Below, piece after piece: positions 48,328 through 64,000 of a DNA stretch of 64,000 bases (its first letter is position 1; the number at the start of each line of letters is the position of its first letter). Origin of the DNA: Thermoguttaceae bacterium (GTDB lineage Bacteria; Planctomycetota; Planctomycetia; Pirellulales; Thermoguttaceae); the NCBI GenBank assembly GCA_963665265.2, contig OY762224.2, positions 3,255,456 to 3,319,455 on the forward strand. Direction: 5' to 3'. The notes beneath the pieces are model-generated. The model did no database searches, had not been told where the DNA came from, and saw only the letters and a program-made list of their open reading frames with translations. The position numbers were made by a program, and so were the translations under genes.

Positions 48328-48514
48328 TTACAGACCCGCCATTTGAACGGACATTACAATATTCCGCTTCAAAACCATACGTTAGAATAATCAGCGGAAA
48401 TGGCGTGTTTTTGGTGCGAACAAACATGCGGAGACGTTTTGATTGAGTCGTTAGCGTTGCATTTCGTTCATCACAAAGATCATGTGATTGGAGCCAACAA
48501 AACTTCGCCAAGAA

Positions 48515-49612: not shown

Positions 49613-49780
49613 ACGACTCCATTCTCATCGTCTCGGCGTCCCGGCGGCAAATGGGGACTTTCTTGGTTCTCGGTTTGTTTACGGGGGATGCGGAATGTGT
49701 CGCACTTAACCAACATCTTCAGCGTTGATACTCAAGCAGAACGCCATTCATCTGGCGTTACCGTTAACGGTTCATCAAGA

Positions 49781-49889
49781 AACAAAAAAGCCCGTCGGCA
49801 GGGGCAGGTGCCGAACGGGCAATTCGCTATTGGGCGTGGTGCGACGGATCGGGGCAGGTGTCCATCGCTAATAGAATTAACGCCCAAGT
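49781..49889 (-). ncRNA. structured small-RNA-like element, copy C
   Basis: On the minus strand GGATTGACA (49918-49923), a 17-nt spacer and GAAAAT (49896-49901). The outer stem is UUGGGCGU/ACGCCCAA. The inner hairpin GCGAUGGA/UCCGUCGC has loop CACCUGCCCCGA. The terminator GCCCGU(U)CGGC/GCCGACGGGC has loop ACCUGCCCCU and is followed by U6. Confidence 0.5.
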
Positions 49890-50133
49890 TCTTGTATTTT
49901 CGTAGATGCTGTTTTTTTGTCAATCCCCACCGAAAATTGGCTCGTTTACTTCCAGTTGCCTTTTCTGACTTTCTGGTCAAATCGACGGTCGTAACTGGCA
50001 AAAGTATTCCGATTCTGCGGGCTTCCAGGGGAGCAGCAGACCGTTTTTCCGTCGCAGAGAAACGGATATAATGGCCGAATCTGATCTGAGAAAGTCAGCC
50101 TCAAAACATCGAGATCGAAAGGGACAGCGATTT

Positions 50134-50670: not shown

Positions 50671-51075
50671 TCAGAATCCTTCTCTTCGCCAATTGACCTC
50701 TTTCAGATCGACTGAATGATAATACGGTGAGTCTTTCACCAATCTTCGCAAAAGTCCCGCCAGTCGTTCGCTCGTTTCTGAGTCGATCCCAATAAAAACG
50801 GATTTGATACGGATGACGGATTGCTGCTCGGCATTTTTCCAAGCGATCAAGGAATCCGAACTCGTCGGCAAATTCTCCATGTCGATCGCCGAATCTCCCG
50901 TCAGATAAAACAAGAGTTGGAGTGCCTGAAAGCCGGTCAGAGATAAAGTCAGGGCTTCATCGATCTCGATTTGAATGTAGCCGTCGACGGGTTCAAGCCA
51001 GTGGTGTGAATTCGTTGGTCCGTCAGCAGTCCACCAAGTCGCCGAGATTGTCGTTTCTTCGTCGAGCGTAGTCAT
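50671..51075 (-). CDS. hypothetical protein
   Basis: 134-aa ORF with GGAG before the ATG. Confidence 0.4.
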   Translation of the reverse strand: MTTLDEETTISATWWTADGPTNSHHWLEPVDGYIQIEIDEALTLSLTGFQALQLLFYLTGDSAIDMENLPTSSDSLIAWKNAEQQSVIRIKSVFIGIDSETSERLAGLLRRLVKDSPYYHSVDLKEVNWRREGF

Positions 51076-51339
51076 ATTTCTCTCCTTATTCTTTAGGAGA
51101 GTAAGGAGGGAAAAAACTTGTGGAGATTTTTTGATTGCGGATTTGGTTTGTCCGAAAAATCTCGGAAACTCCGACTCATCCGCCGCACCATTATTCGCTT
51201 TCCCTCCAGGAATCTATCTCCCTCGTGGGGGCTATTGATTCCACCCCCCATACAGAAGTAAAATCGGGGGTTGAGGTGATTTTCATCTATACCAGAACCT
51301 TTTCTTATCTGGCAAATCTCAAACAGATAGGGGCTTGGC

Positions 51340-54300
51340 ATGAGAACTAATAAAGAGTTTTTTAAGACCTTGGGTGCCGAAAGAGCAAGATTCTTTCTGT
51401 GCGACCTTCATGTCCATAGCCCAGCTTCAAAGGACATGATCGAAGGCGAGAGGTTTGAAGCCCTCTCGGACGAGGAAAAAAAACGTCTTACCCTCGCAAA
51501 AGATTTGCGAGGGAATTTTCTTGAATACGAGACTCATTTGATTGAGCAAAACATATTTCCGATCGAAGACTACCTTGATCTGCTTATACGCCGGCGAGAC
51601 TCCGTTTTAAGCACGTTTCAGGCTTGTGAAGGTGATAAATGGGGAATCGTAGCTATAACCGACCACAACGTCTGCTCATATGCCTGCCGCCTTTCGACTT
51701 ACGCCTGGGACAATCGAAACTCTTCTCGATTAATTGTGCTCCCCGGAATTGAACTCGACGTTAGATTTCCCATTTCGGATGCTTCCATTTCTACTTCTGC
51801 TCACATTTTACTAATCTTCGCCCCAACAACTATCGATCGCAACATTGCATATGCAATTCGAGAGGCATCTGGGAATGACTGGGACTTTGGGCGACCGCTA
51901 GAAGTGAGTTCGCTTCAACATTTCGTGAACAGCATCCGACATCATTTGGTTTCTCCAGCAATTGCCATTGCTGCACACGTTGACACAGGAAAGGGAGTTC
52001 AGGCCCGCACTGTAAAGGCCATTGGCAAATCGTTCCGGGCACCAGAAGCGGAGTTTGCCCGCCTTTCCGGTGAGTTAGAAATTATGTCACTGAAGGGGCG
52101 AAACGATGTCTTGCCTTCGTGGGAGATGGTAGAAGTTAAGCAGAGCATTGAGGGCATCAAGGAAGAGATTGCAAACGAGAGTGAGATTCCGTTGAGGGTA
52201 CTGGAACTAATAGGCGGCTGCGGTTTTGATGGTCTTCAAGTCCACGACATATCTGCTGGGCGACACTATCGGAGACTTCATCGGTTCGAGCAGAAAATTG
52301 GTAGGGCTGTTCCCCTTATTTGTTCTGACGCCCATCGAATCGACGACGTGTTTGTATGTAAGAGCGGTGAAGTCCCCTTCATCAAGCTTTCAGATATCAC
52401 TGCCGACGACTCTCCCGAGAGGAAAAGTGTATGGGAGAATGCCGAAGTCCCATTTATGAAGCTTTCGAATCTTTCCAGCACCCGATCTCCAGAAGATGTG
52501 TTCCATGAGATTCGCACTCGGGGTATTCGATACGGAGAGACACGCTTTAGCGTCCAATCTCCTGGTGAAGTAACTTGCTGGATTTCCGGCATTGAAATTA
52601 TCCCCGATTCCCCAAAAGCAAAGACTTTTTGGCCATTTTCAGACACAGAATCCAACTCGTTTAACTTGTCGTTGTCTCGCAACCTCAACTGCTTGATAGG
52701 AGGAAGAGGCTCAGGAAAGAGTGCTGCAATAGAAGCCCTCTCGTTCGCCGCCCAGCCGAAGTTTCTTGAGGATCGAGATTCAGGGCCATTTGTTGATGAC
52801 TTCCGACGACGAGCCGACGCAACTATTTCCGGCTGCAATGTGCGATTGTGTTGGATTTGTCTGGATGAACAAGGAGCGTACCTGCAAAAACGTGCCATCT
52901 TTTCCACGAGATACTTCAACGAATCGGGGAGGCACCAATCAATCTCTTGTTCGGACATAGATAACAAAGAGATACCCTTGGTCTCACTTCCGATAGAGAT
53001 ATTTCGATTGCATGAAATTGAAGACCTGGTCGAGAAGCCAGAGCAACTCCGTGACCTCTTCGATAACCTCTGTGGTGAAGACGTTGCAGCAAGGACGAAA
53101 AAGATTACATCTCTCGTGGGGCAACTGCAAGGACAGAGAAAGGTACTAATTGGGATCGCAAAGGAAATCTGTCTGCTAACAAGAGAAGGCTCACCGTTGA
53201 GGGCTTATGCGTATCGCAAAATGCTGTATGACGCAGTTAATTCCAATGACGTTCGAGCCAAGTACGAACGTTTGGACGGAGCGGCAAAAGCCGCCGAGAT
53301 AGCGAAAACAGCAGAAGATAACTGGAAAACGCTTTACGATGAATTCGACCTTAAGGATAAAAAACGGCAGCTTGAGGACTTCTTCGTTAAAGTCGAGAAT
53401 GCAGCAACTGATTTCGATAAGAACCTTCTGCCCTTTTGTTCTCCGTTTGAAGATTTCGTCAAAGCCCCTGCTGACGGCGATGAAACCAGTAGGAACCTCA
53501 AAGCTCGGGTCATTGGGGCGGTCACGCAGCTTGATACCGAGCTATCGGCAGTAACGCAGGTTGCGGACAACGCCGGGAAGACTACCCTCGACGCCATTAA
53601 GATCGAGAGAGAAAAACTTGCTGGAGAAGGATTGCCCGTAGGTGGAAAGGAGCGTGAAGCAAAAAAACTAGAATTTGATGAATCTGTTCAGGCCCTTGAG
53701 TCCTACAAAAAGCAAGTCGAACTATGGACGCAAGAGATGCAATTAAGGAACGCTACGTTTGCATATCTTGAAGCCGAGTGTAGAGCTCGCACTGAAGAAC
53801 GAAAGAAGAAGGCGGCGGAGATCACAACAAAACTACGCCATGAGCTTGACCCAGGAACCCTTGTGATCGAAATAGATGCCCGGCCGATGGCAGATAAACG
53901 AGGATTGGCGGAATGGATTAATGGGCATCTATACCCCCCAAATACGAGGTCAAAAGATGTTCGCACGGACGCACTCATTGAAGACGGTTTGATGCCAAAG
54001 ACGCTCCGAAATGCTTTGCTTGGAGAAGAAGAATTTCCTTGTGTCGAACGAGCTAGTGTAACAACAGGGCAAATCGATAAAGCGGCGACCGCTCTTTTTG
54101 TCGGGCATTGTTGGGGAATGCGACGGCTTCCTCCAGAGAAACAGCAAACCGAAGTGTCTCCGGAGCAATGGACTAGTTTACCAGAAGATATTCGAAACGG
54201 GTTACTTTGCTTCCCCGTCGTTCCTGACACTGATGGAAAACTAGATGAGAAGCGGCTCAGTAATGTCTTGGAAATTGACGAAATTATCTTCGACGACCTG

Positions 54301-54765
54301 CCGGAAATCCGGTTAATGGATCGACCAGGTGAAATGACGACGGCACGCCCTCTGCCAGAGCTTTCCCCCGGACAACGTTGCAGTGCAATTCTTCCCATTC
54401 TTCTTTTGAACGGAACGTGCCCTTTGGTAATAGATCAACCCGAGGACAATTTGGACAATCGTCTGATCCGTGAGGTTGTAGTTAAAATACTTGCCTCAAT
54501 CAAGCTGAAAAGGCAAGTTATCATCGCTACCCATAACCCCAATCTGCCGGTCTTGGGGGATGTTGAACAAGCCATTGTCTTACGGGCAGTTGAAGACAAT
54601 AAGTGCCAATTACAGGTCACTGGCAATTTGGATGACCCAAAGGTAGTGCGGCTTATCACCGAAGTGATGGAGGGCGGTCGTGAGGCATTCCAGTACCGCC
54701 ACTCCATTTATCAACCGTATTGGGAAGGACCAGTTGCCACAGAAGATGGAAGGTCGGAAGCTTGA
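51340..54765 (+). CDS. PHP-domain phosphoesterase fused to an ABC/SMC-like ATPase with a long coiled-coil insert
   Basis: N-terminus FFLCDLHVHSPASKD...AITDHN...GIELD...AAHVD...SDAH (PHP metal ligands). Walker A is LIGGRGSGKSAAIEAL at about residue 470. About 400 aa are coiled-coil-like. The signature-like segment is LSPGQR, Walker B is LVIDQPEDNLD, and the H-loop region is IIATHNPN. Confidence 0.75.
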   Translation: MRTNKEFFKTLGAERARFFLCDLHVHSPASKDMIEGERFEALSDEEKKRLTLAKDLRGNFLEYETHLIEQNIFPIEDYLDLLIRRRDSVLSTFQACEGDKWGIVAITDHNVCSYACRLSTYAWDNRNSSRLIVLPGIELDVRFPISDASISTSAHILLIFAPTTIDRNIAYAIREASGNDWDFGRPLEVSSLQHFVNSIRHHLVSPAIAIAAHVDTGKGVQARTVKAIGKSFRAPEAEFARLSGELEIMSLKGRNDVLPSWEMVEVKQSIEGIKEEIANESEIPLRVLELIGGCGFDGLQVHDISAGRHYRRLHRFEQKIGRAVPLICSDAHRIDDVFVCKSGEVPFIKLSDITADDSPERKSVWENAEVPFMKLSNLSSTRSPEDVFHEIRTRGIRYGETRFSVQSPGEVTCWISGIEIIPDSPKAKTFWPFSDTESNSFNLSLSRNLNCLIGGRGSGKSAAIEALSFAAQPKFLEDRDSGPFVDDFRRRADATISGCNVRLCWICLDEQGAYLQKRAIFSTRYFNESGRHQSISCSDIDNKEIPLVSLPIEIFRLHEIEDLVEKPEQLRDLFDNLCGEDVAARTKKITSLVGQLQGQRKVLIGIAKEICLLTREGSPLRAYAYRKMLYDAVNSNDVRAKYERLDGAAKAAEIAKTAEDNWKTLYDEFDLKDKKRQLEDFFVKVENAATDFDKNLLPFCSPFEDFVKAPADGDETSRNLKARVIGAVTQLDTELSAVTQVADNAGKTTLDAIKIEREKLAGEGLPVGGKEREAKKLEFDESVQALESYKKQVELWTQEMQLRNATFAYLEAECRARTEERKKKAAEITTKLRHELDPGTLVIEIDARPMADKRGLAEWINGHLYPPNTRSKDVRTDALIEDGLMPKTLRNALLGEEEFPCVERASVTTGQIDKAATALFVGHCWGMRRLPPEKQQTEVSPEQWTSLPEDIRNGLLCFPVVPDTDGKLDEKRLSNVLEIDEIIFDDLPEIRLMDRPGEMTTARPLPELSPGQRCSAILPILLLNGTCPLVIDQPEDNLDNRLIREVVVKILASIKLKRQVIIATHNPNLPVLGDVEQAIVLRAVEDNKCQLQVTGNLDDPKVVRLITEVMEGGREAFQYRHSIYQPYWEGPVATEDGRSEA

Positions 54766-54836
54766 GTATCCAAGCTTCCGCTACACGAGCTGATAGGCCG
54801 CCAACCACGGCGTTGCTTAGCCTTGAGGATATTCAC

Positions 54837-55322
54837 ATGCCATTTGAAAAAGAATTTACAATACGGACGGCGACCTTCAATGAAGTTGGTTGGTTTTTTC
54901 GCAGTGCTTCCCAACAGGATTGGAATGGCATTGTTCCAGCTTTTATCGACGATACACGGCTCGAACTCTGCGATGGTTTTTCTGTGGCAGAATACCAGGG
55001 TGAAGTCATCGGGGCTGTCGCAACTTCGTCAAAGGGCATGGATGGAAAGTCCTTGCCGACAATCGTGAACCTTTACGTCTTGCGTAAATTCACCAAAAAA
55101 GGCGTTGGGTTACGTCTACTCGTGGATGCGATGAAACGTTTGCTTTCGCCAGAAAGCCCCAAGGTATACTGCCTGGCAATCACAAGAGCGATGGTGAGAA
55201 CAATCGAGAAGCTTCCACAGGAATTAAGGGATTGCTTGGAATACAAGGTTGACCTCAGCGAAGATTTCGTGGCAGCATGGGAGTCGCTGCAAAAAATCAA
55301 GGGGATTGATAGTTGCGAATAA
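54837..55322 (+). CDS. GNAT-family N-acetyltransferase (probable)
   Basis: 162 aa: EVIGAVATSS...VNLYVLRKFTKKGVGLRLLVDAMKRL resembles the GNAT acetyl-CoA binding segment. Confidence 0.55.
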   Translation: MPFEKEFTIRTATFNEVGWFFRSASQQDWNGIVPAFIDDTRLELCDGFSVAEYQGEVIGAVATSSKGMDGKSLPTIVNLYVLRKFTKKGVGLRLLVDAMKRLLSPESPKVYCLAITRAMVRTIEKLPQELRDCLEYKVDLSEDFVAAWESLQKIKGIDSCE

Positions 55323-55512
55323 ACCGGACATGAGCAGAGGTCGAATTCAAAGACGATTCCGATGAGTGGTCCGCCGTCGCCGTGTTTGCTATGGATGTCA
55401 TCAACGACAGTGGATCCGTTCTCGGCGATTACGGAAGCGTTGAAGAGGCAATATTGATACCAATAAGTCGGCTTTTATATCGCACAAATCGATTTACCGA
55501 AGGACACATTAC

Positions 55513-57201
55513 ATGACACGCATTCAGATCAAGGGTGGTGAATATCCAATTGGGAAAATTTTTGGAAAGGATTTTGTCTTCCGAATCCCGTTGTATCAAC
55601 GTCCATACGCATGGCAACAAGACCAAACAGAGGAGCTTCTGGATGACCTTCTTTCTTTCGTTGGTGACGGGAATGAGCCAGTTGATGACCTTAATCCCTA
55701 TTTTCTCGGCAACATCGTGGTCATTAAGGAAGACCATAAGCCTGATGCCGACGTAGTAGATGGTCAGCAACGACTGACAACCCTGGCGATTCTTCTGTCC
55801 GTGATACGTTCACTGACAGACGGAGATTTTGCCAAAGGACTTACGGAGTTCATCTACGAGAAGGGAAATCCCGTCGAGGAGACCCAAGACCGTTTTCGGC
55901 TGACTCTTCGGGATCGTGACGCCACGTTCTTTCAAGATTATATCCAGAAGGAGGGGCAGTTGCAGGGACTCTTATCGCTTGATGAGGTAAAGCTAAGTGA
56001 CAGCCAGAAGAACATTCGCTCAAATACAGCCTCTCTTTTTAAACGCCTTAAGGAATTTCCGAAAGACGCCTGCAAACGCTTGGCTCAGTTCGTAATCAAG
56101 CAGTGCTTCTTGGTGGTTGTATCGACTCCAGACTTCGAGTCAGCCTATCGCATCTTTACCGTCCTGAACAGTCGTGGGCTTGACCTTTCACATGCCGATA
56201 TCCTGAAGTCGGAGATCGTTGGCAAAGTCTCATCGGAGGAACAAGATAAATACGGTAAGCGTTGGGAAGATACGGAAGAACTGTTGGGCCGAGAGTCGTT
56301 CGCCGACCTTTTCTCGCATATTCGGACGGTCTATCGAAAGTTGAAACTGAAGGGAACTGTCCTGGCAGAGTTCAGGCAATATGTGATGTCAGAAGTCAAG
56401 GATTCCAGAACCCTGATTGATGATGTAATCGTCCCATACGCCAACGCATTCTCGGATATCAGAGAAGCCAATTACGAGAGTTCAAAGGGAGCAGATGATG
56501 TCAATACTCTTCTGAAGTGGCTTGGCGAGATCGACAACGCTGACTGGTTGCCTTCGGCCATGCTCTACATGTCACAAAATACAAATGCACCTGATGAACT
56601 TCGGCTGTTTTTCACCAATCTTGAACGTCTTGCCGTGATGCAGATGCTTACGAGATCAAGCATTAACGAACGAATCGAGCGATATGGGCGTTTAATAAAT
56701 GCCATACAGAAGATGGCTGATCTATATGCTGAGGAATCGCCGCTCAAAATCTCAAGGGACGAACAAGAGAGAATGCTCTGTGTTCTTGATGGAGACGTGT
56801 ATAACCTTCTCCCCAAAGTACGTAAATACGTTATGCTTCGGCTTGACTCCGCTTTGTCTGGAGGAGGTGCGACTTACGATCATGGGGTCTTTAGCATCGA
56901 GCATGTTCTTCCTCAACAACCCAAGGCTGGGAGTGTGTGGGAGTCATGGTTTCCTGATTCTGCTGAACGTGAGCAACTCGTTCATCGTCTTGGAAATCTT
57001 GTCATATTGAGCCGACGGAAGAATAGTAGTGCAAGCAATTACGATTTTGACAAAAAGAAGGCAAGTTACTTCACGAAAGATGGTGTTTCACCATTTCAGA
57101 TTACGACCCAGGTGGTTAGCGAAGAGACATGGACGTCCGTTGTAATCAAACGTCGCCAAACGGAGCTTGTCACCAAACTAAAGTCAATATGGAACCTGTA
57201 G
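55513..57201 (+). CDS. GmrSD-type DUF262/DUF1524 protein (type IV modification-dependent restriction candidate)
   Basis: N-terminus IPLYQRPYAWQQDQTEELLDDL...VVDGQQRLTTL (DUF262/ParB-like). C-terminus IEHVLPQ...HRLGNLVILSRRKNSSASNYDF (DUF1524 His-Me finger). Confidence 0.85.
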   Translation: MTRIQIKGGEYPIGKIFGKDFVFRIPLYQRPYAWQQDQTEELLDDLLSFVGDGNEPVDDLNPYFLGNIVVIKEDHKPDADVVDGQQRLTTLAILLSVIRSLTDGDFAKGLTEFIYEKGNPVEETQDRFRLTLRDRDATFFQDYIQKEGQLQGLLSLDEVKLSDSQKNIRSNTASLFKRLKEFPKDACKRLAQFVIKQCFLVVVSTPDFESAYRIFTVLNSRGLDLSHADILKSEIVGKVSSEEQDKYGKRWEDTEELLGRESFADLFSHIRTVYRKLKLKGTVLAEFRQYVMSEVKDSRTLIDDVIVPYANAFSDIREANYESSKGADDVNTLLKWLGEIDNADWLPSAMLYMSQNTNAPDELRLFFTNLERLAVMQMLTRSSINERIERYGRLINAIQKMADLYAEESPLKISRDEQERMLCVLDGDVYNLLPKVRKYVMLRLDSALSGGGATYDHGVFSIEHVLPQQPKAGSVWESWFPDSAEREQLVHRLGNLVILSRRKNSSASNYDFDKKKASYFTKDGVSPFQITTQVVSEETWTSVVIKRRQTELVTKLKSIWNL

Positions 57202-57243
57202 GTTGCTGACTTTCGACGTCAAGTTGGAGGGTAGTGTGATCCC

Positions 57244-57519
57244 ATGAAACTCTTCCGCTACCGAAAACCGTCCCTCAAAACCCTTCTCGGCGTGACCAAA
57301 GCCAAGAAGCGATTGAAAAAAGAACTCGGTATCACCGACGCCTTGAAACCATTTTGATGATGGACGAACAAGAAACGGAAGATCAAACGTGATGTCGGTT
57401 ACGAATCGGACGCCGGTCGGTTGATACGAAATGGATTGCCGAAGCCGGGAGGGTGTTTGGTGGTGATTTTGGTTGGAGTCGGCGTATTGGTGATGGCGGC
57501 GGTGGTGATGGCTAGGTGA
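57244..57519 (+). pseudogene. small ORF interrupted by two consecutive in-frame TGA codons
   Basis: MKLFRYRKPSLKTLLGVTKAKKRLKKELGITDALKPF-TGA-TGA-WTNKKRKIKRDVGYESDAGRLIRNGLPKPGGCLVVILVGVGVLVMAAVVMAR*. One frame is kept throughout and there is a C-terminal hydrophobic helix. Confidence 0.3.
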
Positions 57520-57535
57520 AAAAGGAGGTGCATTA

Positions 57536-58669
57536 ATGACCGATAACATTTTTATAATTCAGGATGATGGAAAACTTGTTGAAATGGGTGAAAAAGTCTA
57601 CGACTCCGAGGCTCTGTTGCAAGAACTTCTTGCAAATTACCCGAAGTTGTTGAGCGGCAGTCAAATAGATATGGATTCTCCTCGACGTTGGTTGCTTATT
57701 AAACGAGAGATGGGAATCCCCGCCGAGGAGTTCGGCGGTGGTCGGTGGTCGGTGGATCACCTTTTCCTTGATCAAGACGGCATTCCCACTCTAATAGAAG
57801 TAAAAAGAAGTAGCGACACTCGTATTCGCCGAGAAGTCGTTGGGCAAATGTTGGATTACGCAGCCAACGCCGTCGTCTATTGGCCTGTTGAGCAAATCCG
57901 AATCGAGTTCGAAAAAAACAGTGCCGATCCCGAACAAACGCTTGCTGATTTCTTAGGCGAAGACGGCGATTTGGAAGATTATTGGCAACGTGTCAAAACC
58001 AATCTTCAAGCTGGTAGAATACGGATGCTCTTCGTGGCCGACTGCATTCCGCCGGAACTTCGGCGGATTGTCGAGTTTCTAAACGAACAGATGGACCCTG
58101 CTGAAGTCTTAGCCGTTGAAATCAAACAGTATGTTGGCGAGGGCATGAAGACTTTGGTGCCACGCATCATAGGGCAAACAGCCGAGGCAGAAAAGAAACA
58201 TCGCACACCCTCGGCGTGGTCCGGATACTGGTTTGTGAACGTTGGAGACGGAGACCATAGGAATTGGGATGACTGCATGAAGCACGGTTTTTTAAGCGCT
58301 GGGCAGGGGAAAATTTATGGCGAGGCGATGAAGAAGCTTAAGGTCGGTGACAAAGTGTTTGCGTACATGAAAGGAAACGGCTATGTGGGATTCGGCAGTG
58401 TGACGCAGGAAGCGGTCATGGCGAAGGATTTCAAAGTCGACGGGCAATGCCTTTTTGATCTCCCTTTGGTTCAGCCTGGGATAAAGAATAATGCCGACAA
58501 CCCCGAGCTTTCAGAATGGCCCATAGGGATTAAATGGGAACAGACTTATCCGAGAAATCAAGCAAAGACGTTTTCAGGAGTATTTGCCAACCCGAACATC
58601 GTCTGCAAAATCAGGGACGAACGAACGGTAAAGTTTCTGAAACAGCAATTTGGTATCGAGGAAGAGTAG
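57536..58669 (+). CDS. NucS-like PD-(D/E)xK nuclease domain fused to an EVE/PUA-like C-terminal domain (prediction)
   Basis: AGGAGG SD. VDHLFLDQDGIPTLIEVKRSSDTRIRREVVGQMLDYAAN has a D...E-x-K layout. The C-terminus is YWFVNVGDGDHRNWDDCMKHGFLSAGQG...LKVGDKVFAYMKGNGYVGFGSV. Confidence 0.5.
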   Translation: MTDNIFIIQDDGKLVEMGEKVYDSEALLQELLANYPKLLSGSQIDMDSPRRWLLIKREMGIPAEEFGGGRWSVDHLFLDQDGIPTLIEVKRSSDTRIRREVVGQMLDYAANAVVYWPVEQIRIEFEKNSADPEQTLADFLGEDGDLEDYWQRVKTNLQAGRIRMLFVADCIPPELRRIVEFLNEQMDPAEVLAVEIKQYVGEGMKTLVPRIIGQTAEAEKKHRTPSAWSGYWFVNVGDGDHRNWDDCMKHGFLSAGQGKIYGEAMKKLKVGDKVFAYMKGNGYVGFGSVTQEAVMAKDFKVDGQCLFDLPLVQPGIKNNADNPELSEWPIGIKWEQTYPRNQAKTFSGVFANPNIVCKIRDERTVKFLKQQFGIEEE

Positions 58670-58767
58670 TGCAAGGCGAGGTTTCGCAGTCAAAGCGATT
58701 GCAATGAAAATACAAAAGCGCTCGGCGGCGGTGGTGGCGAAGTAAGGCATTTTTCGGAGTAAGTCAA

Positions 58768-59808
58768 ATGTTAAGAATTGATCGTCAACAAAAACGGTTT
58801 GAATCACTTCCGGCACCGGCCCTCGCTGACGTAGCTTTTAGGGAAGTCGGCGATCTGCAAAAGTGCATAGCCAACAATCCAGACGCATTTTTTGGTGAAA
58901 TTGGGCAAAAGCTCTTTTTACTAAAGACCGAAGTTCATCCTTCCCAGACGGTGCAGGATCGAATTGATCTGCTGGCACTCGATGAAGAAGGAAACTCCGT
59001 CGTCATTGAACTAAAGCGGGACAACCACAAGCTACATTTGCTCCAAGCGATCTCCTACGCAGCCATGATTGCTCACTGGCAGCCGAATGACTTTTTGGAA
59101 TTACTGGATGAAAGCGGCGTAGAAAGATTAGAAAACTTTCTTGAGGAAGACAAGGAAAACATCAATCGTCGGCAAAAAATCATTCTAATCGCCGAAGCTT
59201 TTGATTATTCCGTTTTGGTGAGTGCCGAATGGCTAAGCGAGAACTTTGGAGTGGACATCGTATGTTGTCGCCTTTCTTTATCCAAGGATGAACAAACGGA
59301 TACCGAATATCTTGTTTGCACAAACGTATTTCCGGCACCAGAAATTGCACGACAAGCAATCGCTCGTGGGCGAATGAATCCCCCCACGAGCGAAATCAGA
59401 TGGTCCGACTGGGATACAGCCCTCTCCGACAATGACAATCCGGCGGTTACCTCTTACTTTCGACAAGCGTTGGTAACGCAGGAGAGTAATCTAGGAAAAC
59501 GAATATTGTGGTATCGCATCAACGATAAGCGGTATTGGTTTGTGTCCGTTCGAAATGGTTTCGCATACGCCTGGCAATATGCTCGTTTTGCGGGCGACAT
59601 TCAATATTGGCAAGAACGTTTGAGTCATCCTGAAGATGTTTGCCCTGTAAAAGCCGAAAAATCTTTACGCTTTCGTTTATATACAGAAAAAGACTTCGAG
59701 AATTTCCATAAGGCTGCCACGAACGACCTTCAAACGGTCCAATGGCTCAGTTCCGCTCCCGATAATGAGACCGATCAAGTTGAGTCGGACTTGGATGAAC
59801 AGCCGTAG
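58768..59808 (+). CDS. NucS-like PD-(D/E)xK nuclease-domain protein with an uncharacterised C-terminal domain
   Basis: RIDLLALDEEGNSVVIELKRDNHKLHLLQAISYAAM, the same motif architecture as the upstream gene. Confidence 0.5.
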   Translation: MLRIDRQQKRFESLPAPALADVAFREVGDLQKCIANNPDAFFGEIGQKLFLLKTEVHPSQTVQDRIDLLALDEEGNSVVIELKRDNHKLHLLQAISYAAMIAHWQPNDFLELLDESGVERLENFLEEDKENINRRQKIILIAEAFDYSVLVSAEWLSENFGVDIVCCRLSLSKDEQTDTEYLVCTNVFPAPEIARQAIARGRMNPPTSEIRWSDWDTALSDNDNPAVTSYFRQALVTQESNLGKRILWYRINDKRYWFVSVRNGFAYAWQYARFAGDIQYWQERLSHPEDVCPVKAEKSLRFRLYTEKDFENFHKAATNDLQTVQWLSSAPDNETDQVESDLDEQP

Positions 59809-59832
59809 AACAAATCAGAAAACCAACTAATC

Positions 59833-60750
59833 ATGCCCATCCCTGACTATCAAGGTTTCATGTTGCCGTTGCTCAAATTCATTGCAGACGACAAAGAGCA
59901 TAATATTCGAGACGTGGTCGCCGGATTGTCCGACGAGCTTGGTTTGTCCGAAACCGAACGGCTTCAAATGTTGCCGAGCGGACAGCAAGCGGTTGTTCCC
60001 AATCGAATCGGCTGGAGTAGAACTTATCTCAAAAAGGCGGGGCTGCTTTCCAGCCCGAGAAGAGGATTCGTGCAGATTTCGGATGTAGGAAAGGAAGTGT
60101 TGAAAGAAAACCCGATCAAAATCGACTATCATTTCCTGAAACGTTTCCCTTCATTTCTCGAATTCGTCCAACCTTCTGTTGCAGATGGCGACGAATCTCC
60201 TGCCGCTACCGAAGTCGAAGACACCCAAACTCCTGACGAAGTTCTTGAATCGTCCTACCAAAGCCTTCGAGACGCTCTCGCAGACGATTTATTGGAACAA
60301 GTGAAATCCTGTTCGCCCGCCTTCTTTGAACGACTGGTGGTCGATTTGCTGGTCGCAATGGGATATGGCGGATCGTTGGCGGACGCCGGACAAGCTATCG
60401 GGAAAACGGGCGACGGCGGCATCGACGGAATTATCAAGGAGGACAAGCTCGGTTTGGACGTGATTTGCATTCAAGCCAAACGCTGGGAAGGTACGGTCGG
60501 TCGACCTGTGGTTCAAGCCTTTACCGGAAGTATGGAAGGGGTGCGAGCCAGAAAAGGCGTGCTTTTGACGACCGGTTCGTTTTCAAAGGACGCTGTGGAG
60601 TACGTCGAGCGAATTGAGCGGAAAATCGTGTTGATCGACGGAAAGCGTTTGGCGGAATTGATGATCGACTATAACATCGGCGTGACGACGAACAGAACCT
60701 ATTTGATCAAGAAACCGGATTCGGACTATTTCGCCGAGGACGAGGCGTGA
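59833..60750 (+). CDS. mrr: Mrr-family restriction endonuclease (Mrr_N winged helix plus Mrr catalytic domain)
   Basis: MPIPDYQGFMLPLLKFIADDKEHNIRDV...NRIGWSRTYLKKAGLL and FERLVVDLLVAMGYGG...GDGGIDGII...VICIQAKRW. Confidence 0.85.
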   Translation: MPIPDYQGFMLPLLKFIADDKEHNIRDVVAGLSDELGLSETERLQMLPSGQQAVVPNRIGWSRTYLKKAGLLSSPRRGFVQISDVGKEVLKENPIKIDYHFLKRFPSFLEFVQPSVADGDESPAATEVEDTQTPDEVLESSYQSLRDALADDLLEQVKSCSPAFFERLVVDLLVAMGYGGSLADAGQAIGKTGDGGIDGIIKEDKLGLDVICIQAKRWEGTVGRPVVQAFTGSMEGVRARKGVLLTTGSFSKDAVEYVERIERKIVLIDGKRLAELMIDYNIGVTTNRTYLIKKPDSDYFAEDEA

Positions 60751-60904
60751 CGGTGAACTAGTGAAATATCTAGCGTGGATGAAAGGCAAGGCATACTACG
60801 GCAACGGAAATTGGATAAGATTATCAACTCCGTTTCAGTGAAATCATAGAGAACCTTCGATAAGAAGTTGTCGCAAAGTCGAGCGGATTTAGGAGGAAAT
60901 TTGC

Positions 60905-61516
60905 ATGACTATAGAAAAGGAAATTCGGTTCAGGGAAAAAACCTACCAAATCACGATTGAAGACGATTTTGTCGAACCTCCTGTGTGGATGGAAGTCAAA
61001 TCATGTCTTGTGCCTTCAGGGCAAATAAAAAACGAGCTTGATCGACGTTTTCTGGACCAATATGCAGCGAAATTACTTCAGTGCTGGGGAAACGACCATT
61101 TAGAAAGTTTCTTATCCTTACTGCACGACATGGGTGCTTCTGTTGAAGAACTACACAAACTTGGTCTCGACTTTCTAGTTGAAACCGAGGATAGCAGAAC
61201 TTGGTTTTTCCGAAGTCCGATTCACGCAATGGGTTACAAGGTTGGGAAGAGTGGAATTTCGGAAGACGAACGTCATGCAATCTTACGAGAAGCGTTTCTC
61301 GGAACAATTCCAAATGTTGGTGCCGAAAAGTATATGGTTACATGGGGACTCCCTGGTTCTGAAAAGCGTTTGGCGGCAATTGCACACCATATTCGTTTCA
61401 AATGCCGAGGCAATCCGACTACGGATCTTTCTGTAGCCAATGCTGATTGGCAAAGCGATCTGAAGTGGCTGAAAGCCACATTTTATGATGGACATTTCAC
61501 ATTTCCGTGGATTTAG
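60905..61516 (+). CDS. hypothetical protein
   Basis: 203-aa ORF preceded by AGGAGG. No family recognised. Confidence 0.45.
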   Translation: MTIEKEIRFREKTYQITIEDDFVEPPVWMEVKSCLVPSGQIKNELDRRFLDQYAAKLLQCWGNDHLESFLSLLHDMGASVEELHKLGLDFLVETEDSRTWFFRSPIHAMGYKVGKSGISEDERHAILREAFLGTIPNVGAEKYMVTWGLPGSEKRLAAIAHHIRFKCRGNPTTDLSVANADWQSDLKWLKATFYDGHFTFPWI

Positions 61517-61604
61517 CACTCGCAGGAACAGATTTTTTACGTTCGGCTCATTCGTTTGCCTGTAAAAATTATCACCGTGATCGCTAAATCATCACGCCAC
61601 TCCC

Positions 61605-62342
61605 ATGAAACACTTACTCCTCCCCATCCTGCTCATCGTCCTCGTCGTTTCCTCCTGCCAAGCCCAGCAGCAGACGGCAACTTCTTCAAATCCGTCCTCG
61701 GTCGAAGTCTATTTCAGCCCCAAGGGCGGTTGCACGGAAGCTGTCGTTCGGGAATTAGACTCAGCCAAGAAGACAGTTCTGGTTCAAGCCTATAGTTTCA
61801 CCTCGGTTCCTATCGCCAAAGCCCTCGTCGAAGCTCATAAACGTGGAGTTGACGTCCGAGTGATCTTGGACAAAAGCCAGCGAACGGAGAAATACAGTTC
61901 CGCCGACTTCGTTCAGCACGCCGGCATTCCAGTTTGGATCGACGCCAAACATGCAATTGCTCACAACAAGATCATGGTGATCGATTCGCAAACGGTCATT
62001 ACCGGCAGTTTCAATTTCACCAAAGCCGCTGAGGAGAATAACGCAGAGAACTTATTGGCGATCCGTTCCCCGGAATTGGCTGCGAAATACGCCAACAACT
62101 GGAAAGTTCATTTAGAACATGCTGAAAAGTACGAAGGAAAAGGCGAAGTTGACGCTCGCTCCGACGATCCGCAGGCTGACGCCAATATCGGAGGATACAT
62201 AGCTTCCAAGAATTCAGAAATCTTTCATAAACCTGACTGCAAATCCGCCGCCAAGATTTCGTCGAAGAATCTAGTGCATTTTGACACGAGGGACGAAGCG
62301 ATTCAGGCAGGGAAGAAACCGTGTGGAAATTGTAAGCCGTGA
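61605..62342 (+). CDS. phospholipase-D-family (Nuc-like) nuclease with signal peptide and C-terminal Ada-type Zn-binding domain
   Basis: MKHLLLPILLIVLVVSSCQA signal or lipobox-like sequence. HKD motif AIAHNKIMVIDSQTVITGSFNFTKAAEENNAENL. C-terminus FHKPDCKSA...FDTRDEAIQAGKKPCGNCKP. Confidence 0.75.
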   Translation: MKHLLLPILLIVLVVSSCQAQQQTATSSNPSSVEVYFSPKGGCTEAVVRELDSAKKTVLVQAYSFTSVPIAKALVEAHKRGVDVRVILDKSQRTEKYSSADFVQHAGIPVWIDAKHAIAHNKIMVIDSQTVITGSFNFTKAAEENNAENLLAIRSPELAAKYANNWKVHLEHAEKYEGKGEVDARSDDPQADANIGGYIASKNSEIFHKPDCKSAAKISSKNLVHFDTRDEAIQAGKKPCGNCKP

Positions 62343-62467: not shown

Positions 62468-64000
62468 ATGAGCAGCTTACTTGAAAACCCGATCTTTTGG
62501 AGAGGGGTTCACGGAACCCTCCAGGTATTTGGATTAATCCTTTGCGGACTAATCGGTTTGTATCTGGTGCTCCGTCGCAGTCGAACAACGTCAACTATCT
62601 CAATGCGATCTCCGATTCTACGACTTCTGTTCACGGGGCATTCAGTCGGCATTGTATTAGTAGTGATTTCCGGAGTAGGCTTGGCAATTGGGCTACTTTC
62701 AGGTGAAGCAAGAAGAACCAGCGACGGCAAGAGCGACGTGTTGCATTACTCGGGTAGTCGGAAAGCCGAAGATTTAACTGCTAAAGAATGGTATTTTCGA
62801 GTTGCGGACGAACAAAAATTCGGCGGGCGGCCTCTATCGCCCGAAAGAAAGAGCGAATTGATTGAGATGACGGCAAAATTGCGTCCGGAATTGTCGCATA
62901 ACGAAATTGCGGAATTTGTTAGCAACTACGATCCAAGACGACATCTTGAACCATTGCTCGACGATGTTATGCGGAATCTCCCATACAAGTACGAGCGGAA
63001 GATATCTGATGTTTACGCAGGAGAGCTTCCTTCTAACGCTTTGGATGCTGCTGTTATAACCACACCCGGAGGCGGTCACATGATACTGCTCCCAGCGGGA
63101 ACGTCCCACAATCTCCATCAATGGGCAAAACCAATTTGTGCATACATTATTCAGAAAACTCGTGAAGATCGTTCTGGAGTTATTGAAAAGATAAAAAGAT
63201 CTTTCATCGCCTATAACACCCATGATACAACACCTGACTTTTCAGAATATAACGATCCGGACGTGGTTCATACAGCAAGCATAATCACCTCAGCCGCAAT
63301 TGAGTTTCTGATTGCACATGAAATTGCACATATCGGGCTTGGGCACACAAAAGCAAATACCTACAGCACCGAGCAGGAAGAGGAAGCGGATATAGCTGCT
63401 ATCGAAATAGTCTTACATAATTTGCCAGACCATGCAGATGAGACAGCAGTAAAAAAAGGCCGTCTGATTATGGATAAACAAATCGGATACTGCGGAATAC
63501 TATATGCAACCTCCTGCCTATTATTTGCGGAGCATGAGCCACGTACTCAAAGAATGACGCTCAGATTCGCAAAAATCCTTACAAAAATTGGTCACGGGGA
63601 AGACATGGAGAAGTTTAGCTTCTATCTGAATTTTTCAAATATGGTACGACTAACTTATGAGGGGCTTAACACTACTGTACCGCCACCAGATGAGCTTGAC
63701 GCCGAAAGTAGATATTTGGGGAGGATATACATTGCATACAAAGCAGGAGATGAGAAAGAGCTAAGCTCAATTGTCAATGAAACTCCAGATGATATTCTGT
63801 ACAGAAAATATATAACAATGCTAGTAGAAGGGGCGTTGGCACTGGCTAGAAATCGTATTGCTGACACATCTACGGATTGGAGTAGAGGTGACTTCCTAAA
63901 TCCCGCAGGTCTGTACCGCCTGGCCTGTTCAATGCACGCCGCACGAATCCACTATCTCGGCAAAACGAAAATTGCCGAAAAGTCGGAATGGCTTAACCGT
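62468..64000 (+). CDS. membrane-anchored HExxH zinc-metallopeptidase-like protein, 3' end outside the window
   Basis: Translated by hand; it is not in the ORF track because no stop lies in the window. MSSLLENPIFWRGVHGTLQVFGLILCGLIGLYLVL... has two TM helices, then ...ITSAAIEFLIAHEIAHIGLGH...EQEEEADIAAIE. The frame is open from 62468 to the window end. Confidence 0.55.
   Translation, partial: MSSLLENPIFWRGVHGTLQVFGLILCGLIGLYLVLRRSRTTSTISMRSPILRLLFTGHSVGIVLVVISGVGLAIGLLSGEARRTSDGKSDVLHYSGSRKAEDLTAKEWYFRVADEQKFGGRPLSPERKSELIEMTAKLRPELSHNEIAEFVSNYDPRRHLEPLLDDVMRNLPYKYERKISDVYAGELPSNALDAAVITTPGGGHMILLPAGTSHNLHQWAKPICAYIIQKTREDRSGVIEKIKRSFIAYNTHDTTPDFSEYNDPDVVHTASIITSAAIEFLIAHEIAHIGLGHTKANTYSTEQEEEADIAAIEIVLHNLPDHADETAVKKGRLIMDKQIGYCGILYATSCLLFAEHEPRTQRMTLRFAKILTKIGHGEDMEKFSFYLNFSNMVRLTYEGLNTTVPPPDELDAESRYLGRIYIAYKAGDEKELSSIVNETPDDILYRKYITMLVEGALALARNRIADTSTDWSRGDFLNPAGLYRLACSMHAARIHYLGKTKIAEKSEWLNR

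What the first reader, a model, noticed from the sequence alone, without database searches (positions are those of the whole stretch)
51340..62342. One-strand defence island with several predicted modification-dependent nucleases and no methyltransferase
Nine co-directional genes occupy this interval. In order they are:
- a PHP+ATPase giant protein;
- a GNAT;
- a GmrSD-type DUF262/DUF1524 enzyme;
- a disrupted small ORF;
- a NucS-like nuclease with an EVE-like domain;
- a second NucS-like nuclease;
- Mrr;
- an unknown 203-aa protein;
- a PLD nuclease.

GmrSD, Mrr and EVE-fused nucleases are all families that attack modified DNA. Stacking them without any cognate methylase fits an anti-phage island aimed at hypermodified phage genomes. 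Uncharacterised genes embedded in such islands (58768-59808, 60905-61516, and the GNAT) are good candidates for new defence components.
Basis: partly seen in the sequence, partly recalled or inferred. Interest (0 to 1): 0.7.

Follow-up and report, generated by a model that had tools for sequence, protein, structure and literature searches.

The report
Mosaic island of modified-DNA nucleases
This stretch of a probable planctomycete chromosome is a one-strand row of independent anti-phage genes, several from families that cut modified DNA, with no methyltransferase; it is a good but fairly ordinary defence island, plus one small protein of a confidently predicted fold with no match in PDB or BFVD.

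Summary
Eight intact + strand ORFs and one disrupted small ORF occupy 51340-62342. A tenth co-directional ORF (62468 to beyond 64000, Lit-like membrane metalloprotease) extends the row.

HMMs give these assignments:
- PHP + Rad50-like ATPase related to TrlF/Ppl
- marginal GNAT
- GmrSD
- two PD-(D/E)xK NucS-like nucleases of PADLOC candidate family PDC-S11
- Mrr
- a PLD nuclease

No methyltransferase domain was found in any ORF scanned, and no motif anywhere in the window.

- The EVE call rests on one sub-threshold Pfam hit.
- The second NucS-like protein carries an unrelated C-terminal domain.
- The PLD nuclease has a lipoprotein signal peptide, so it is probably extracytoplasmic.

The 203-aa "unknown" is not an orphan. 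It has 1345 relatives, a pLDDT 94 model with no PDB or BFVD match, and a C-terminal domain fused elsewhere to HNH and UvrD-like proteins.

In about 130 related loci the genes almost never co-occur, so this is a mosaic of stand-alone modules, not one system. The closest tested analogue is MdgA (NucS+DUF4268), a modification-dependent anti-T4 nuclease. Verdict: new member of a known kind; function is inferred from homology only.

The parts
51340..54765 (+). p1, 1141 aa: N-terminal PHP-type phosphoesterase fused to a Rad50/SMC-like ABC ATPase with a ~540-aa insertion. A distant TrlF/Ppl-family protein.
   Evidence: NCBIfam TrlF_fam_ATP 2.4e-86 (291 bits, below the 350 cut-off), Spaf_1101 6e-47, Ppl 3e-32. 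PADLOC Ppl 3.8e-25. Pfam AAA_21, SMC_N, AAA_23. PHP motifs DLHVHS22, ITDHN106, GIELD136, SAHILL153, AAHVD211, SDAHR329; Walker A GGRGSGKS454, signature LSPGQR1008, Walker B VIDQPED1030, ATHNP1063. No Pfam PHP hit for residues 1-437.
54834..55322 (+). p2, 162 aa from ATG (200 aa from TTG 54720, which would overlap the end of p1): marginal GNAT acetyltransferase.
   Evidence: Pfam Acetyltransf_1 E 1.8e-4, 22.2 bits against cut-off 20.7. The only PDB sequence hits are GNATs (PH1933, YpeA) at E about 0.4. xxGxG motif KKGVG. No PADLOC hit.
55513..57201 (+). p3, 562 aa: GmrSD-family (DUF262 + DUF1524) type IV restriction enzyme.
   Evidence: Pfam GmrSD_N 2.2e-40, GmrSD_C 6.5e-28. PADLOC Orf5 1.3e-200, HEC-06 1.2e-64. 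DGQQR at residue 83; His-Me finger region EHVLPQ463 and HRLGN491.
57244..57519 (+). Disrupted small ORF: 92 codons with two adjacent in-frame TGA codons (57355-57360). Intact relatives encode an 88-92-aa very basic protein with a C-terminal membrane helix.
   Evidence: Intact or decayed copies lie next to p4, p5 and p7 homologues in L003/L004, L005-L007, L010, L011 and L138.
57536..58669 (+). p4, 377 aa: PDC-S11-family PD-(D/E)xK/NucS-like nuclease (residues 1-215) plus a rare C-terminal domain that may be EVE/PUA-like (216-377).
   Evidence: PADLOC PDC-S11 6.9e-68, full length. Motifs D79, E88-V-K90, QMLDY104-108. At least 7997 relatives, with the N-terminal domain 55-86% identical across phyla. 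Pfam EVE E 0.01, 16.3 bits, sub-threshold. This C-terminus occurs in only 4 of 109 top relatives.
58670..58767 (+). Intergenic stretch with a possible remnant of the 3' end of the small ORF (...SAAVVAK* against ...MAAVVMAR*).
   Evidence: read by eye, not tested statistically.
58768..59808 (+). p5, 346 aa: divergent NucS-like PD-(D/E)xK nuclease (1-~195) plus an unrelated C-terminal alpha/beta domain (~210-330).
   Evidence: PADLOC PDC-S11 2.4e-28, N-terminal part only. NCBIfam NucS 3e-5 and Pfam NucS_C 3e-3. AF2 model pLDDT 83. Foldseek EndoMS 5gke and NucS 2vld, prob 1.0, E 1e-4. Motifs D67, D72, E81-L-K83, QAISY93-97 invariant in 57 relatives. Catalytic motifs align in register with p4. The C-terminal domain has only weak fold matches to YjbR/YdhG-like proteins (TM about 0.45).
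59833..60750 (+). p6, 305 aa: Mrr-type type IV restriction endonuclease.
   Evidence: Pfam Mrr_N 2.5e-30, Mrr_cat 9.9e-37. PADLOC mREase_IV 2.1e-93.
60905..61516 (+). p7, 203 aa: member of an uncharacterised family without a Pfam model. It has an N-terminal beta-hairpin/helical part and a ~100-aa C-terminal domain (consensus GYxVG...WGxP..RL...DWExDLxWLK..FY..F.WP).
   Evidence: No Pfam, PADLOC, NCBIfam or PDB sequence hit. 1345 relatives by exhaustive HMMER. AF2 pLDDT 94.2, pTM 0.85. No fold match in PDB or BFVD, best E 0.14-0.6. Fusions to HNH_2, a UvrD-like helicase and coiled-coil proteins.
61605..62342 (+). p8, 245 aa: Nuc/NucT-like single-HKD PLD nuclease with an N-terminal lipoprotein signal peptide and a C-terminal Ada-type zinc-ribbon.
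   Evidence: Pfam PLDc_2 1.9e-29, Ada_Zn_binding 2.8e-7. NCBIfam NucT 6e-17, DrmC 4e-17, both far below their cut-offs. N-terminus MKHLLLPILLIVLVVSSC read as a lipobox (my reading, no predictor run). Homologues of 72% and 62% identity lie near p5 homologues in L009/L011 and L027.
62468..64000 (+). p9, at least 511 aa and cut by the window end: two N-terminal membrane helices plus an HExxH metalloprotease, Lit-like.
   Evidence: Translation. PADLOC Lit 5.6e-11. Pfam Peptidase_U49 3e-4, 20.9 bits against cut-off 23.9. Motif HEIAH.

Best explanation
The interval is a mosaic defence island: a one-strand row of at least ten genes that are mostly self-contained, single-gene anti-phage modules acquired independently. 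They do not form one multi-gene machine.

Four modules are modification-dependent (type IV-style) nucleases: GmrSD, Mrr and two NucS-like PD-(D/E)xK enzymes of the PDC-S11 kind. In the NucS-like enzymes a conserved catalytic core (D...ExK plus QxxxY) is joined to a swappable C-terminal module. That module most likely reads the DNA feature, such as a modified base, and licenses cleavage.

Because these enzymes attack only modified DNA, the host needs no protective methylase. Carrying several with different reader domains widens the range of phage hypermodifications covered.

The remaining modules add other layers:
- a Ppl/TrlF-like PHP-nuclease/ATPase
- a membrane-anchored Lit-like protease, which is an abortive-infection type
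- a secreted or periplasmic Nuc-like PLD nuclease that could degrade DNA outside the cytoplasm

Shown here: gene structure, domain and family assignments, intact catalytic motifs, absence of an MTase in the window, and non-conserved neighbourhoods.
For: -
- The p5 model matches EndoMS/NucS.
- Catalytic residues are intact and invariant across relatives.
- p4's nuclease core is joined to at least six C-terminal domain classes that show no detectable sequence relationship, apart from one weak pair at 35% probability. These include DUF4268 and DUF5655.
- The NucS+DUF4268 protein MdgA is necessary and sufficient against T4 but not against the T4-GT7 control phage (non-glucosylated, unmodified C). 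It degrades T4 DNA in vitro, and an E77A change in a VIVENK motif abolishes activity (bioRxiv 10.1101/2025.02.28.640651).
- HEC-06 (GmrSD-like) was validated in the same paper.
- Ppl is a tested single-gene defence (PMC11482910).
- Homologues of p4 sit after type I R-M genes (L001) and next to a TIR protein (L003). Homologues of p5 sit after BREX genes (L005).
- Independence: among 79 genomic loci with p5 homologues, none has a p4, GmrSD, Mrr, p1 or p7 homologue within 10 kb, and only 4 have a PLD.
- Every island protein is a singleton at 90% identity.
- No MTase was found.
Against: - Nothing here is an experiment on these proteins.
- p1 scores below the curated cut-offs of TrlF, Ppl and Spaf_1101.
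- GNAT, EVE and Lit hits are marginal or sub-threshold.
- The window ends at 64000, so an MTase further downstream cannot be excluded.
- p4 and p5 homologues do co-occur in two metagenomic islands (L005, L008).
- The short gaps between genes (16-190 nt) would allow co-transcription, so some functional coupling is not excluded.
Confidence: 0.75

Rival explanations
1. The row is one coordinated multi-gene system or operon whose parts depend on each other. For example, p7 could be a DNA sensor for the neighbouring Mrr or PLD nuclease, the GNAT could regulate the PHP-ATPase, and p4 and p5 could act as a heteromeric pair.
For: All genes are co-directional with short gaps. p4 and p5 homologues lie in the same island in L005/L006 and L008. 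PLD homologues lie 2-9 kb from p5 homologues in L009/L011 and L027. The p7 module is fused to HNH nucleases in P0246 and P0251, so elsewhere it does work with a nuclease.
Against: Neighbourhoods are not conserved. 0 of 79 p5 loci carry p4, p7, Mrr, GmrSD or p1 relatives. The p4 close homologues in L001 and L003 have other neighbours. The p7 homologue in L010 has different neighbours. PADLOC treats PDC-S11, Mrr, GmrSD-like HEC-06, Ppl and Lit as single-gene entries.
Confidence: 0.1
2. These are housekeeping DNA-repair or recombination nucleases, not phage defence: NucS as mismatch repair, PHP-Rad50-like as an SbcCD analogue, PLD as a transformation or competence nuclease.
For: p5's fold matches the mismatch endonuclease EndoMS/NucS. 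p1 has an SMC/Rad50-type ATPase. NucT is a transformation-associated nuclease by NCBIfam name. The TrlF namesake was described through a temperature-restriction phenotype, not phage defence (bioRxiv 10.1101/2020.06.02.129163).
Against: p4 and p5 lack the NucS N-terminal dimerisation/DNA-binding domain and score far below the NucS cut-off (23 against 216 bits). Their relatives are patchily distributed and sit beside R-M, BREX and TIR genes. All proteins are singletons at 90% identity. GmrSD and Mrr have no repair role.
Confidence: 0.07
3. The island is a decaying relic whose genes are no longer functional.
For: The small ORF carries two in-frame stops, and a further possible remnant lies at 58670-58767. 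No convincing promoters or terminators were found above chance.
Against: All eight large ORFs are full length relative to their families, with intact catalytic motifs. The promoter scan uses a sigma-70 consensus that may not apply to this organism.
Confidence: 0.05

Closest known systems
MdgA (NucS + DUF4268 modification-dependent anti-phage nuclease; bioRxiv 10.1101/2025.02.28.640651) and PADLOC candidate family PDC-S11
   Same: Single-gene architecture: N-terminal NucS-like PD-(D/E)xK nuclease plus a C-terminal putative recognition domain. The catalytic hhhExK motif matches (MdgA VIVENK, p4 LIEVK, p5 VIELK). p4 matches PDC-S11 models over their full length. Close relatives of p4 carry DUF4268 on the same nuclease core.
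   Different: p4's C-terminal domain is a rare class (4 of 109 relatives) with only a sub-threshold EVE hit. p5's is another domain with no detectable relationship to it. No activity data exist for p4 or p5.
GmrSD / BrxU / HEC-06 type IV restriction enzymes
   Same: p3 has both defining domains (DUF262 with DGQQR, DUF1524 His-Me finger) in one polypeptide, as in fused GmrSD (family analysis in PMC4619093).
   Different: Substrate specificity is unknown. The best PADLOC model is 'Orf5', not HEC-06.
Mrr (E. coli type IV enzyme) and the E. coli K-12 'immigration control region' (hsd-mrr-mcrBC; from my own knowledge)
   Same: p6 has Mrr_N plus Mrr_cat. Several modification-dependent enzymes are clustered at one locus.
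   Different: The E. coli region also carries a type I R-M system with its methylase, whereas none is present in this window. Here the companions are PDC-S11, Ppl-like and Lit-like genes.
Ppl (Gao et al. 2020 single-gene defence) and TrlF (Photorhabdus temperature-restricted locus)
   Same: PHP-type N-terminus plus AAA/ABC-like ATPase in one large protein.
   Different: p1 scores below all three curated cut-offs (291/350, 161/475, 111/1000 bits). No TrlG- or TrlR-like partner was identified by the domain scans, but no TrlG or TrlR sequence was compared directly. p1 is followed by a GNAT gene instead.
Lit protease of E. coli e14 (Peptidase U49)
   Same: HExxH core matched by the PADLOC Lit model (5.6e-11).
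   Different: The match covers only about 60 residues around the active site and is below the Pfam cut-off. p9 has two N-terminal membrane helices and is truncated by the window end.
Nuc (pKM101) / NucT (Helicobacter) secreted PLD nucleases; DrmC of DISARM
   Same: Single HKD PLD domain of about 120 aa. The N-terminal signal sequence resembles that of periplasmic Nuc (family knowledge).
   Different: It has an extra C-terminal Ada-type zinc ribbon. It is far below the NucT and DrmC equivalog cut-offs, and no DISARM genes are nearby.

Membership tests
GmrSD type IV restriction enzyme | DUF262 (GmrSD_N) NTPase/ParB-like domain with the DGQQR motif | tested here: met
   Pfam GmrSD_N 2.2e-40, 139 bits against cut-off 33; DGQQR at residue 83.
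GmrSD type IV restriction enzyme | DUF1524 (GmrSD_C) His-Me finger nuclease domain | tested here: met
   Pfam GmrSD_C 6.5e-28, 98 bits against cut-off 23.
GmrSD type IV restriction enzyme | Cleavage depends on modified (e.g. glc-hmC) DNA | not testable with these tools
   Needs enzyme or phage assays.
Mrr | Mrr_N winged-helix domain plus Mrr_cat PD-(D/E)xK domain | tested here: met
   Pfam 2.5e-30 and 9.9e-37; PADLOC mREase_IV 2.1e-93 over residues 1-301.
PADLOC PDC-S11 (candidate single-gene defence) | Full-length match to a PDC-S11 model | tested here: met
   p4: PDLC04916 6.9e-68, residues 11-375 against model 11-357 of 358.
PADLOC PDC-S11 (candidate single-gene defence) | Full-length match to a PDC-S11 model (p5) | tested here: not met
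   p5 matches only the N-terminal ~200 positions of the models (2.4e-28). Its C-terminal 150 aa have no hit.
NucS/EndoMS mismatch endonuclease | C-terminal RecB-like PD-(D/E)xK nuclease fold | tested here: met
   The p5 model against 5gke and 2vld: prob 1.0, E 1e-4. D..ExK and QxxxY motifs are present in p4 and p5.
NucS/EndoMS mismatch endonuclease | NucS N-terminal domain and an equivalog-level score | tested here: not met
   NCBIfam NucS 23 bits against cut-off 216 for p5, none for p4. Pfam NucS_C 17.9 bits against 24. No NucS_N hit.
EVE/PUA-like modified-base reader fused to a nuclease | Recognisable EVE domain in p4 residues 216-377 | tested here: inconclusive
   Pfam EVE E 0.01, 16.3 bits against cut-off 23, covering model positions 33-72 of 145. 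No EVE structure was found by sequence or profile search of PDB.
MdgA (NucS + DUF4268) | DUF4268 C-terminal domain | tested here: not met
   No DUF4268 hit in p4 or p5. hhalign of the DUF4268-class C-termini against p4C and p5C gives prob below 1%. DUF4268 occurs on the same nuclease core in relatives P0012, P0016 and P0023.
MdgA (NucS + DUF4268) | Sequence homology to MdgA itself | not tested
   The MdgA sequence is not in the held text or supplements. Only the mutagenic primer motif VIV(E77)NKLDD could be compared.
Ppl / TrlF / Spaf_1101 PHP-ATPases | Score above the curated NCBIfam equivalog cut-off | tested here: not met
   TrlF 291/350, Spaf_1101 161/475, Ppl 111/1000 bits.
Ppl / TrlF / Spaf_1101 PHP-ATPases | PHP phosphoesterase motifs plus a P-loop ATPase in one polypeptide | tested here: met
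   Motifs at residues 22, 106, 136, 153, 211 and 329; Walker A at 454, signature at 1008, Walker B at 1030. Pfam AAA_21 and SMC_N. The Pfam PHP model itself gave no hit.
GNAT acetyltransferase | Pfam Acetyltransf_1 above the gathering score; acetyl-CoA motif | tested here: met
   22.2 bits against 20.7, a marginal pass. KKGVG motif. PDB hits are all GNATs but at E about 0.4.
Lit (Peptidase U49) | Pfam Peptidase_U49 above the gathering score | tested here: not met
   20.9 bits against 23.9. PADLOC Lit 5.6e-11 over about 60 residues. The ORF is truncated by the window end.
Classical restriction-modification system | A DNA methyltransferase gene in or beside the cluster | tested here: not met
   No MTase family in the 61 scanned ORFs of the window. 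No N6/N4 or C5 catalytic motif in any open frame of at least 150 aa. Sequence beyond 64000 was not seen.
Integron cassette array | attC-like imperfect inverted repeats between co-directional cassettes and a nearby IntI | tested here: not met
   No recurrent inverted or direct repeat at the gene junctions. The only integrases are about 28 kb and 50 kb away.

The most novel reading that the evidence does not exclude
The 203-aa protein (60905-61516) may represent a new nucleic-acid-sensing domain family used in prokaryotic immunity. It has no Pfam model. It is confidently folded (pLDDT 94) yet has no structural neighbour in PDB or BFVD. Its ~100-aa C-terminal module sits at the extreme C-terminus of more than 1000 proteins, including fusions to HNH_2 endonucleases, a UvrD-like helicase and coiled-coil proteins with a motif I read by eye as BRCT-like (not tested). 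Family members lie beside type I HsdR, BrxL and GmrSD genes. Alongside this, the PDC-S11/MdgA-like enzymes would be one very large modular type IV family: a highly conserved nuclease core carrying at least six interchangeable reader domains, of which the two in this window are uncharacterised classes.
Probability: 0.25. Interest if true: 0.6.

Novelty: new member of a known kind. Interest (0 to 1): 0.35.

Why it matters
Islands that stack type IV enzymes show which DNA hypermodifications the local phages use, and they are a source of modification-specific nucleases for epigenetic tools.

This island offers three concrete leads:
- two untested C-terminal domain classes on a nuclease core whose relative MdgA is already shown to be modification-dependent
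- a divergent Ppl/TrlF-like PHP-ATPase paired with a GNAT
- a confidently folded small protein, with no fold match in PDB or BFVD, whose domain is widespread yet unannotated

All come from Planctomycetota-like lineages, where defence systems are little studied. The overall phenomenon, a defence island without a methylase, is expected for type IV systems and is not surprising in itself.

Tried and rejected
- **Near-identical DNA elsewhere:** none in E. coli genomes or plasmids. Exact-protein look-ups for GmrSD and P0001 in the contig index found nothing, so the source organism is inferred only from the relatives' taxa.
- **p4+p5 as a conserved pair:** suggested by matching contig lengths and by L005 and L008. 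Rejected as a rule, because 0 of 79 genomic p5 loci carry a p4 relative.
- **Integron or attC-type cassette array:** no junction repeats.
- **Island borders:** no second copy of the tRNA-Val 3' end in the window, and no GC step at 51 kb.
- **Promoter and terminator scans:** not above shuffled expectation.
- **Rfam:** only two tRNAs.
- **EVE confirmation:** PDB sequence and profile searches gave nothing relevant.
- **PHP confirmation:** Pfam and PDB searches of p1 residues 1-437 gave nothing.
- **GNAT as a conserved partner of p1:** plasmid relatives cover only the C-terminal ATPase and have other partners. The viral-contig scan found no locus. This remains untested.
- **Relatedness among C-terminal domain classes:** hhalign found none, except 35% probability for one pair.
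- **MdgA sequence:** not retrievable.
- **First scan with alignment A1:** failed because the alignment was too divergent.

Full report
**Observation**

The + strand of 51340-62342 carries eight intact ORFs:

| Gene | Coordinates | Length |
|---|---|---|
| p1 | 51340-54765 | 1141 aa |
| p2 | 54720 (TTG) or 54834 (ATG) to 55322 | 200 or 162 aa |
| p3 | 55513-57201 | 562 aa |
| p4 | 57536-58669 | 377 aa |
| p5 | 58768-59808 | 346 aa |
| p6 | 59833-60750 | 305 aa |
| p7 | 60905-61516 | 203 aa |
| p8 | 61605-62342 | 245 aa |

Seven of these exact sequences are on record as called proteins from one 4.2-Mb NCBI/ENA contig. Each is a singleton at 90% identity.

The "disrupted small ORF" is a single 92-codon frame (57244-57519) interrupted by two adjacent in-frame TGA codons.

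The row continues past the stated end. An ORF starting at 62468 stays open to the window edge. It encodes two membrane helices and an HEIAH metalloprotease motif.

The genes immediately upstream (50671-51341) are on the other strand and have no family hits.

**What the genes are**

- **p3** is a fused GmrSD. Pfam gives GmrSD_N 2e-40 and GmrSD_C 6e-28. PADLOC gives Orf5 1e-200 and HEC-06 1e-64. The DGQQR motif is present.
- **p6** is Mrr: Mrr_N plus Mrr_cat, and PADLOC mREase_IV 2e-93.
- **p4** matches the PADLOC candidate family PDC-S11 over its full length (7e-68). It shows a PD-(D/E)xK core (D79, E88-V-K90) followed by a RecB-type QxxxY motif.
- **p5** matches only the N-terminal half of the PDC-S11 models (2e-28).
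  - An AlphaFold model built on 57 relatives (pLDDT 83) hits EndoMS/NucS structures at probability 1.0.
  - Its D67, D72, E81, K83, Q93 and Y97 are invariant in the family.
  - They align in register with p4's motifs.
- **p1** scores 291 bits on NCBIfam's TrlF model (cut-off 350) and lower on Spaf_1101 and Ppl. PADLOC Ppl is 4e-25.
  - No PHP HMM fired.
  - The six PHP motifs are readable in the sequence. Walker A, signature and Walker B flank a ~540-aa insertion, as in Rad50/SMC.
- **p2** is a marginal GNAT: 22 bits against a cut-off of 20.7, with weak PDB hits that are all GNATs.
- **p8** is a single-HKD PLD nuclease with a C-terminal Ada-type zinc ribbon. Its N-terminus MKHLLLPILLIVLVVSSC reads as a lipoprotein signal (my reading). 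This fits the secreted Nuc/NucT type better than a cytoplasmic effector.
- **p9** is Lit-like: PADLOC 5.6e-11, Pfam Peptidase_U49 just below its cut-off.

**The EVE claim**

The C-terminal 160 aa of p4 give only a sub-threshold Pfam EVE hit: E 0.01, 16 bits, 40 of 145 positions. PDB searches with the sequence and with a profile found nothing relevant. The call stays open.

More informative is what the relatives show. At least 7997 proteins share p4's nuclease core at 55-86% identity, across Planctomycetota, Acidobacteriota, Armatimonadota and Euryarchaeota. Among the top 109, this core carries at least six C-terminal classes:

- a dominant unannotated class (88 proteins)
- DUF4268 (5)
- DUF5655 (4)
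- the window's class (4)
- two further classes

These classes are not detectably related in profile-profile comparison. p5's C-terminal domain is yet another class, with weak fold resemblance to YjbR/YdhG-like proteins. A constant cutter joined to a variable module is the standard layout of modification-dependent enzymes (PMC6765204, PMC7641849).

**Published analogue**

- MdgA degrades T4 DNA in vitro.
- It is inactivated by E77A in a VIVENK motif.
- MdgB and a HEC-06 homologue behaved likewise (bioRxiv 10.1101/2025.02.28.640651).

The MdgA motif corresponds to LIEVK in p4 and VIELK in p5. I could not obtain the MdgA sequence, so membership is untested. Ppl is a tested single-gene defence of unknown mechanism (PMC11482910). 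TrlF is known only from a temperature-restriction locus in Photorhabdus.

**No methyltransferase**

Pfam scans of 61 ORFs across all 64 kb found no MTase family. A motif scan of every open frame of at least 150 aa found no credible N6/N4 or C5 catalytic motif. The refutation condition "hidden methyltransferase" is therefore not met within the window. Sequence beyond 64000 is unknown.

**One system or many?**

Close homologues of p4 lie downstream of a type I R-M operon (L001) and beside a cNMP-TIR protein (L003). p5 homologues lie downstream of BREX pglX-pglZ-brxL (L005) and elsewhere.

p4 and p5 relatives share an island in L005/L006 and L008. But in 79 genomic loci with p5 relatives and 10-kb flanks, mostly Planctomycetota and Acidobacteriota, there were no p4, p1, GmrSD, Mrr or p7 relatives, and only four PLD hits.

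The island is therefore a mosaic of independently mobile modules.

**The 203-aa protein**

The word-indexed search found only the protein itself. Exhaustive HMMER found 1345 relatives, 288 of them below 1e-10.

- The model is very confident (pLDDT 94, pTM 0.85), yet it has no match in PDB or BFVD.
- The conserved part is the C-terminal ~100 aa, which always lies at the extreme C-terminus of proteins of 100-715 aa.
- Partners include HNH_2 endonucleases (P0246, P0251), a UvrD-like helicase (L132), a WYL protein and many coiled-coil proteins with a shared GxGPF...VVGR...IYSQEMF module.
- Pfam does not cover the domain: 0 hits on it in 99 members.
- Among 57 neighbours from 22 non-redundant loci there are two type I HsdR, one BrxL, one GmrSD and several helicase-nucleases. 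This is suggestive, but no background was computed.
- No catalytic-looking motif is conserved (G110, Y111, G114, R123, W147, G148, R155, D185), so a binding or sensor role is more likely than an enzyme. This is inference.

**A recurrent junction element**

Intact homologues of the small ORF are 88-92 aa, very basic, and end in a membrane helix. Their positions are:

- directly upstream of p4 homologues (L005 13191-13457; L003 9707-9985)
- after the p7 homologue (L010)
- after a BrxL-led array on a predicted viral contig (L138)

Decayed fragments follow p5 and p4 homologues (L005 9064-9156; L003 11048-11236; L011). In the window, 58670-58767 looks like another 3' remnant. Whether this is a small partner protein or a recombination scar is open.

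**Verdict**

The island is a new instance of a known kind, with two modest novelties: untested reader classes on an MdgA-like core, and a p7 domain family without Pfam coverage or a PDB/BFVD fold match. Interest 0.35.

Noticed in passing
window 57244-57519 and 58670-58767; L003 9707-9985 and 11048-11236; L005 9064-9156 and 13191-13457; L010 1998-2195; L011 1399-1539; L138 6001-6252: A small basic, tail-anchored ORF (MxFFRYRxPSLxTLLGITKAKKRIKKELGIT..KPFRWWTNTKRRFKRKIGYESDGGRLIRNGLPRPGG plus a membrane helix) recurs between unrelated defence genes in several genomes. Copies are intact, pseudogenised or fragmentary. In the window it carries two adjacent TGA stops where relatives have R-W. It may be a partner of PDC-S11 nucleases or a cassette-junction scar.
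   Followed up: partly
window 62468-64000 (+): A tenth co-directional gene beyond the reported end: two membrane helices plus an HEIAH protease, Lit-like (PADLOC 5.6e-11). It is cut by the window edge.
   Followed up: partly
window 48504-48660 and 49771-49930 (+): Two copies (about 80% identical, 1267 nt apart) of a ~150-nt element with two hairpins that each present GGGGCAGG in the loop. Hairpin 1 keeps pairing through compensatory changes, and copy A folds with z = -4.3. There is no Rfam match. Each copy lies upstream of a + strand ORF, and the two downstream proteins are unrelated.
   Followed up: partly
window 61605-61660: The PLD nuclease begins with a lipoprotein-type signal peptide (…LVVSSC) and ends with an Ada-like CxxxC…CxxC zinc ribbon, suggesting an extracytoplasmic DNA-binding nuclease. 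Homologues of 72% and 62% identity recur near p5 homologues in L009/L011 and L027.
   Followed up: partly
P0001-P0120 (relatives of window 57536-58669): The PDC-S11 nuclease core is unusually conserved (55-86% identity across bacterial phyla and Euryarchaeota; at least 7997 hits). None of the 120 listed hits has a precomputed Pfam domain on the core itself. Its C-terminal domain is swapped among at least six classes with no detectable relationship.
   Followed up: partly
window 22485-27003 (-): A tyrosine integrase (22485-23462), a RuvB-like AAA+ protein (23958-24932) and an ArdC-type antirestriction/zincin protein (26098-27003) suggest a mobile-element remnant about 25 kb upstream of the island.
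   Followed up: no
window 848-2233 and 16759-16833: A second integrase (848-2200) abuts tRNA-Met (2160-2233, - strand). GC falls from about 0.55 to about 0.47 right after tRNA-Val (16759-16833), but no repeat of the tRNA 3' end occurs in the window.
   Followed up: partly
window 29231-30073, 37293-37709, 43243-44082: Three hemerythrin-domain proteins are interspersed with PAS histidine kinases, an MCP and CheW. This looks like an oxygen- or iron-sensing signalling neighbourhood unrelated to defence.
   Followed up: no
L091, L096, L100 and many P02xx/P03xx proteins: Longer relatives of the 203-aa protein insert a conserved GxGPF…VVGR…IYSQEMF…GHPALE module, which I read by eye as BRCT-like, between its N- and C-terminal halves. 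Pfam detects nothing there.
   Followed up: no
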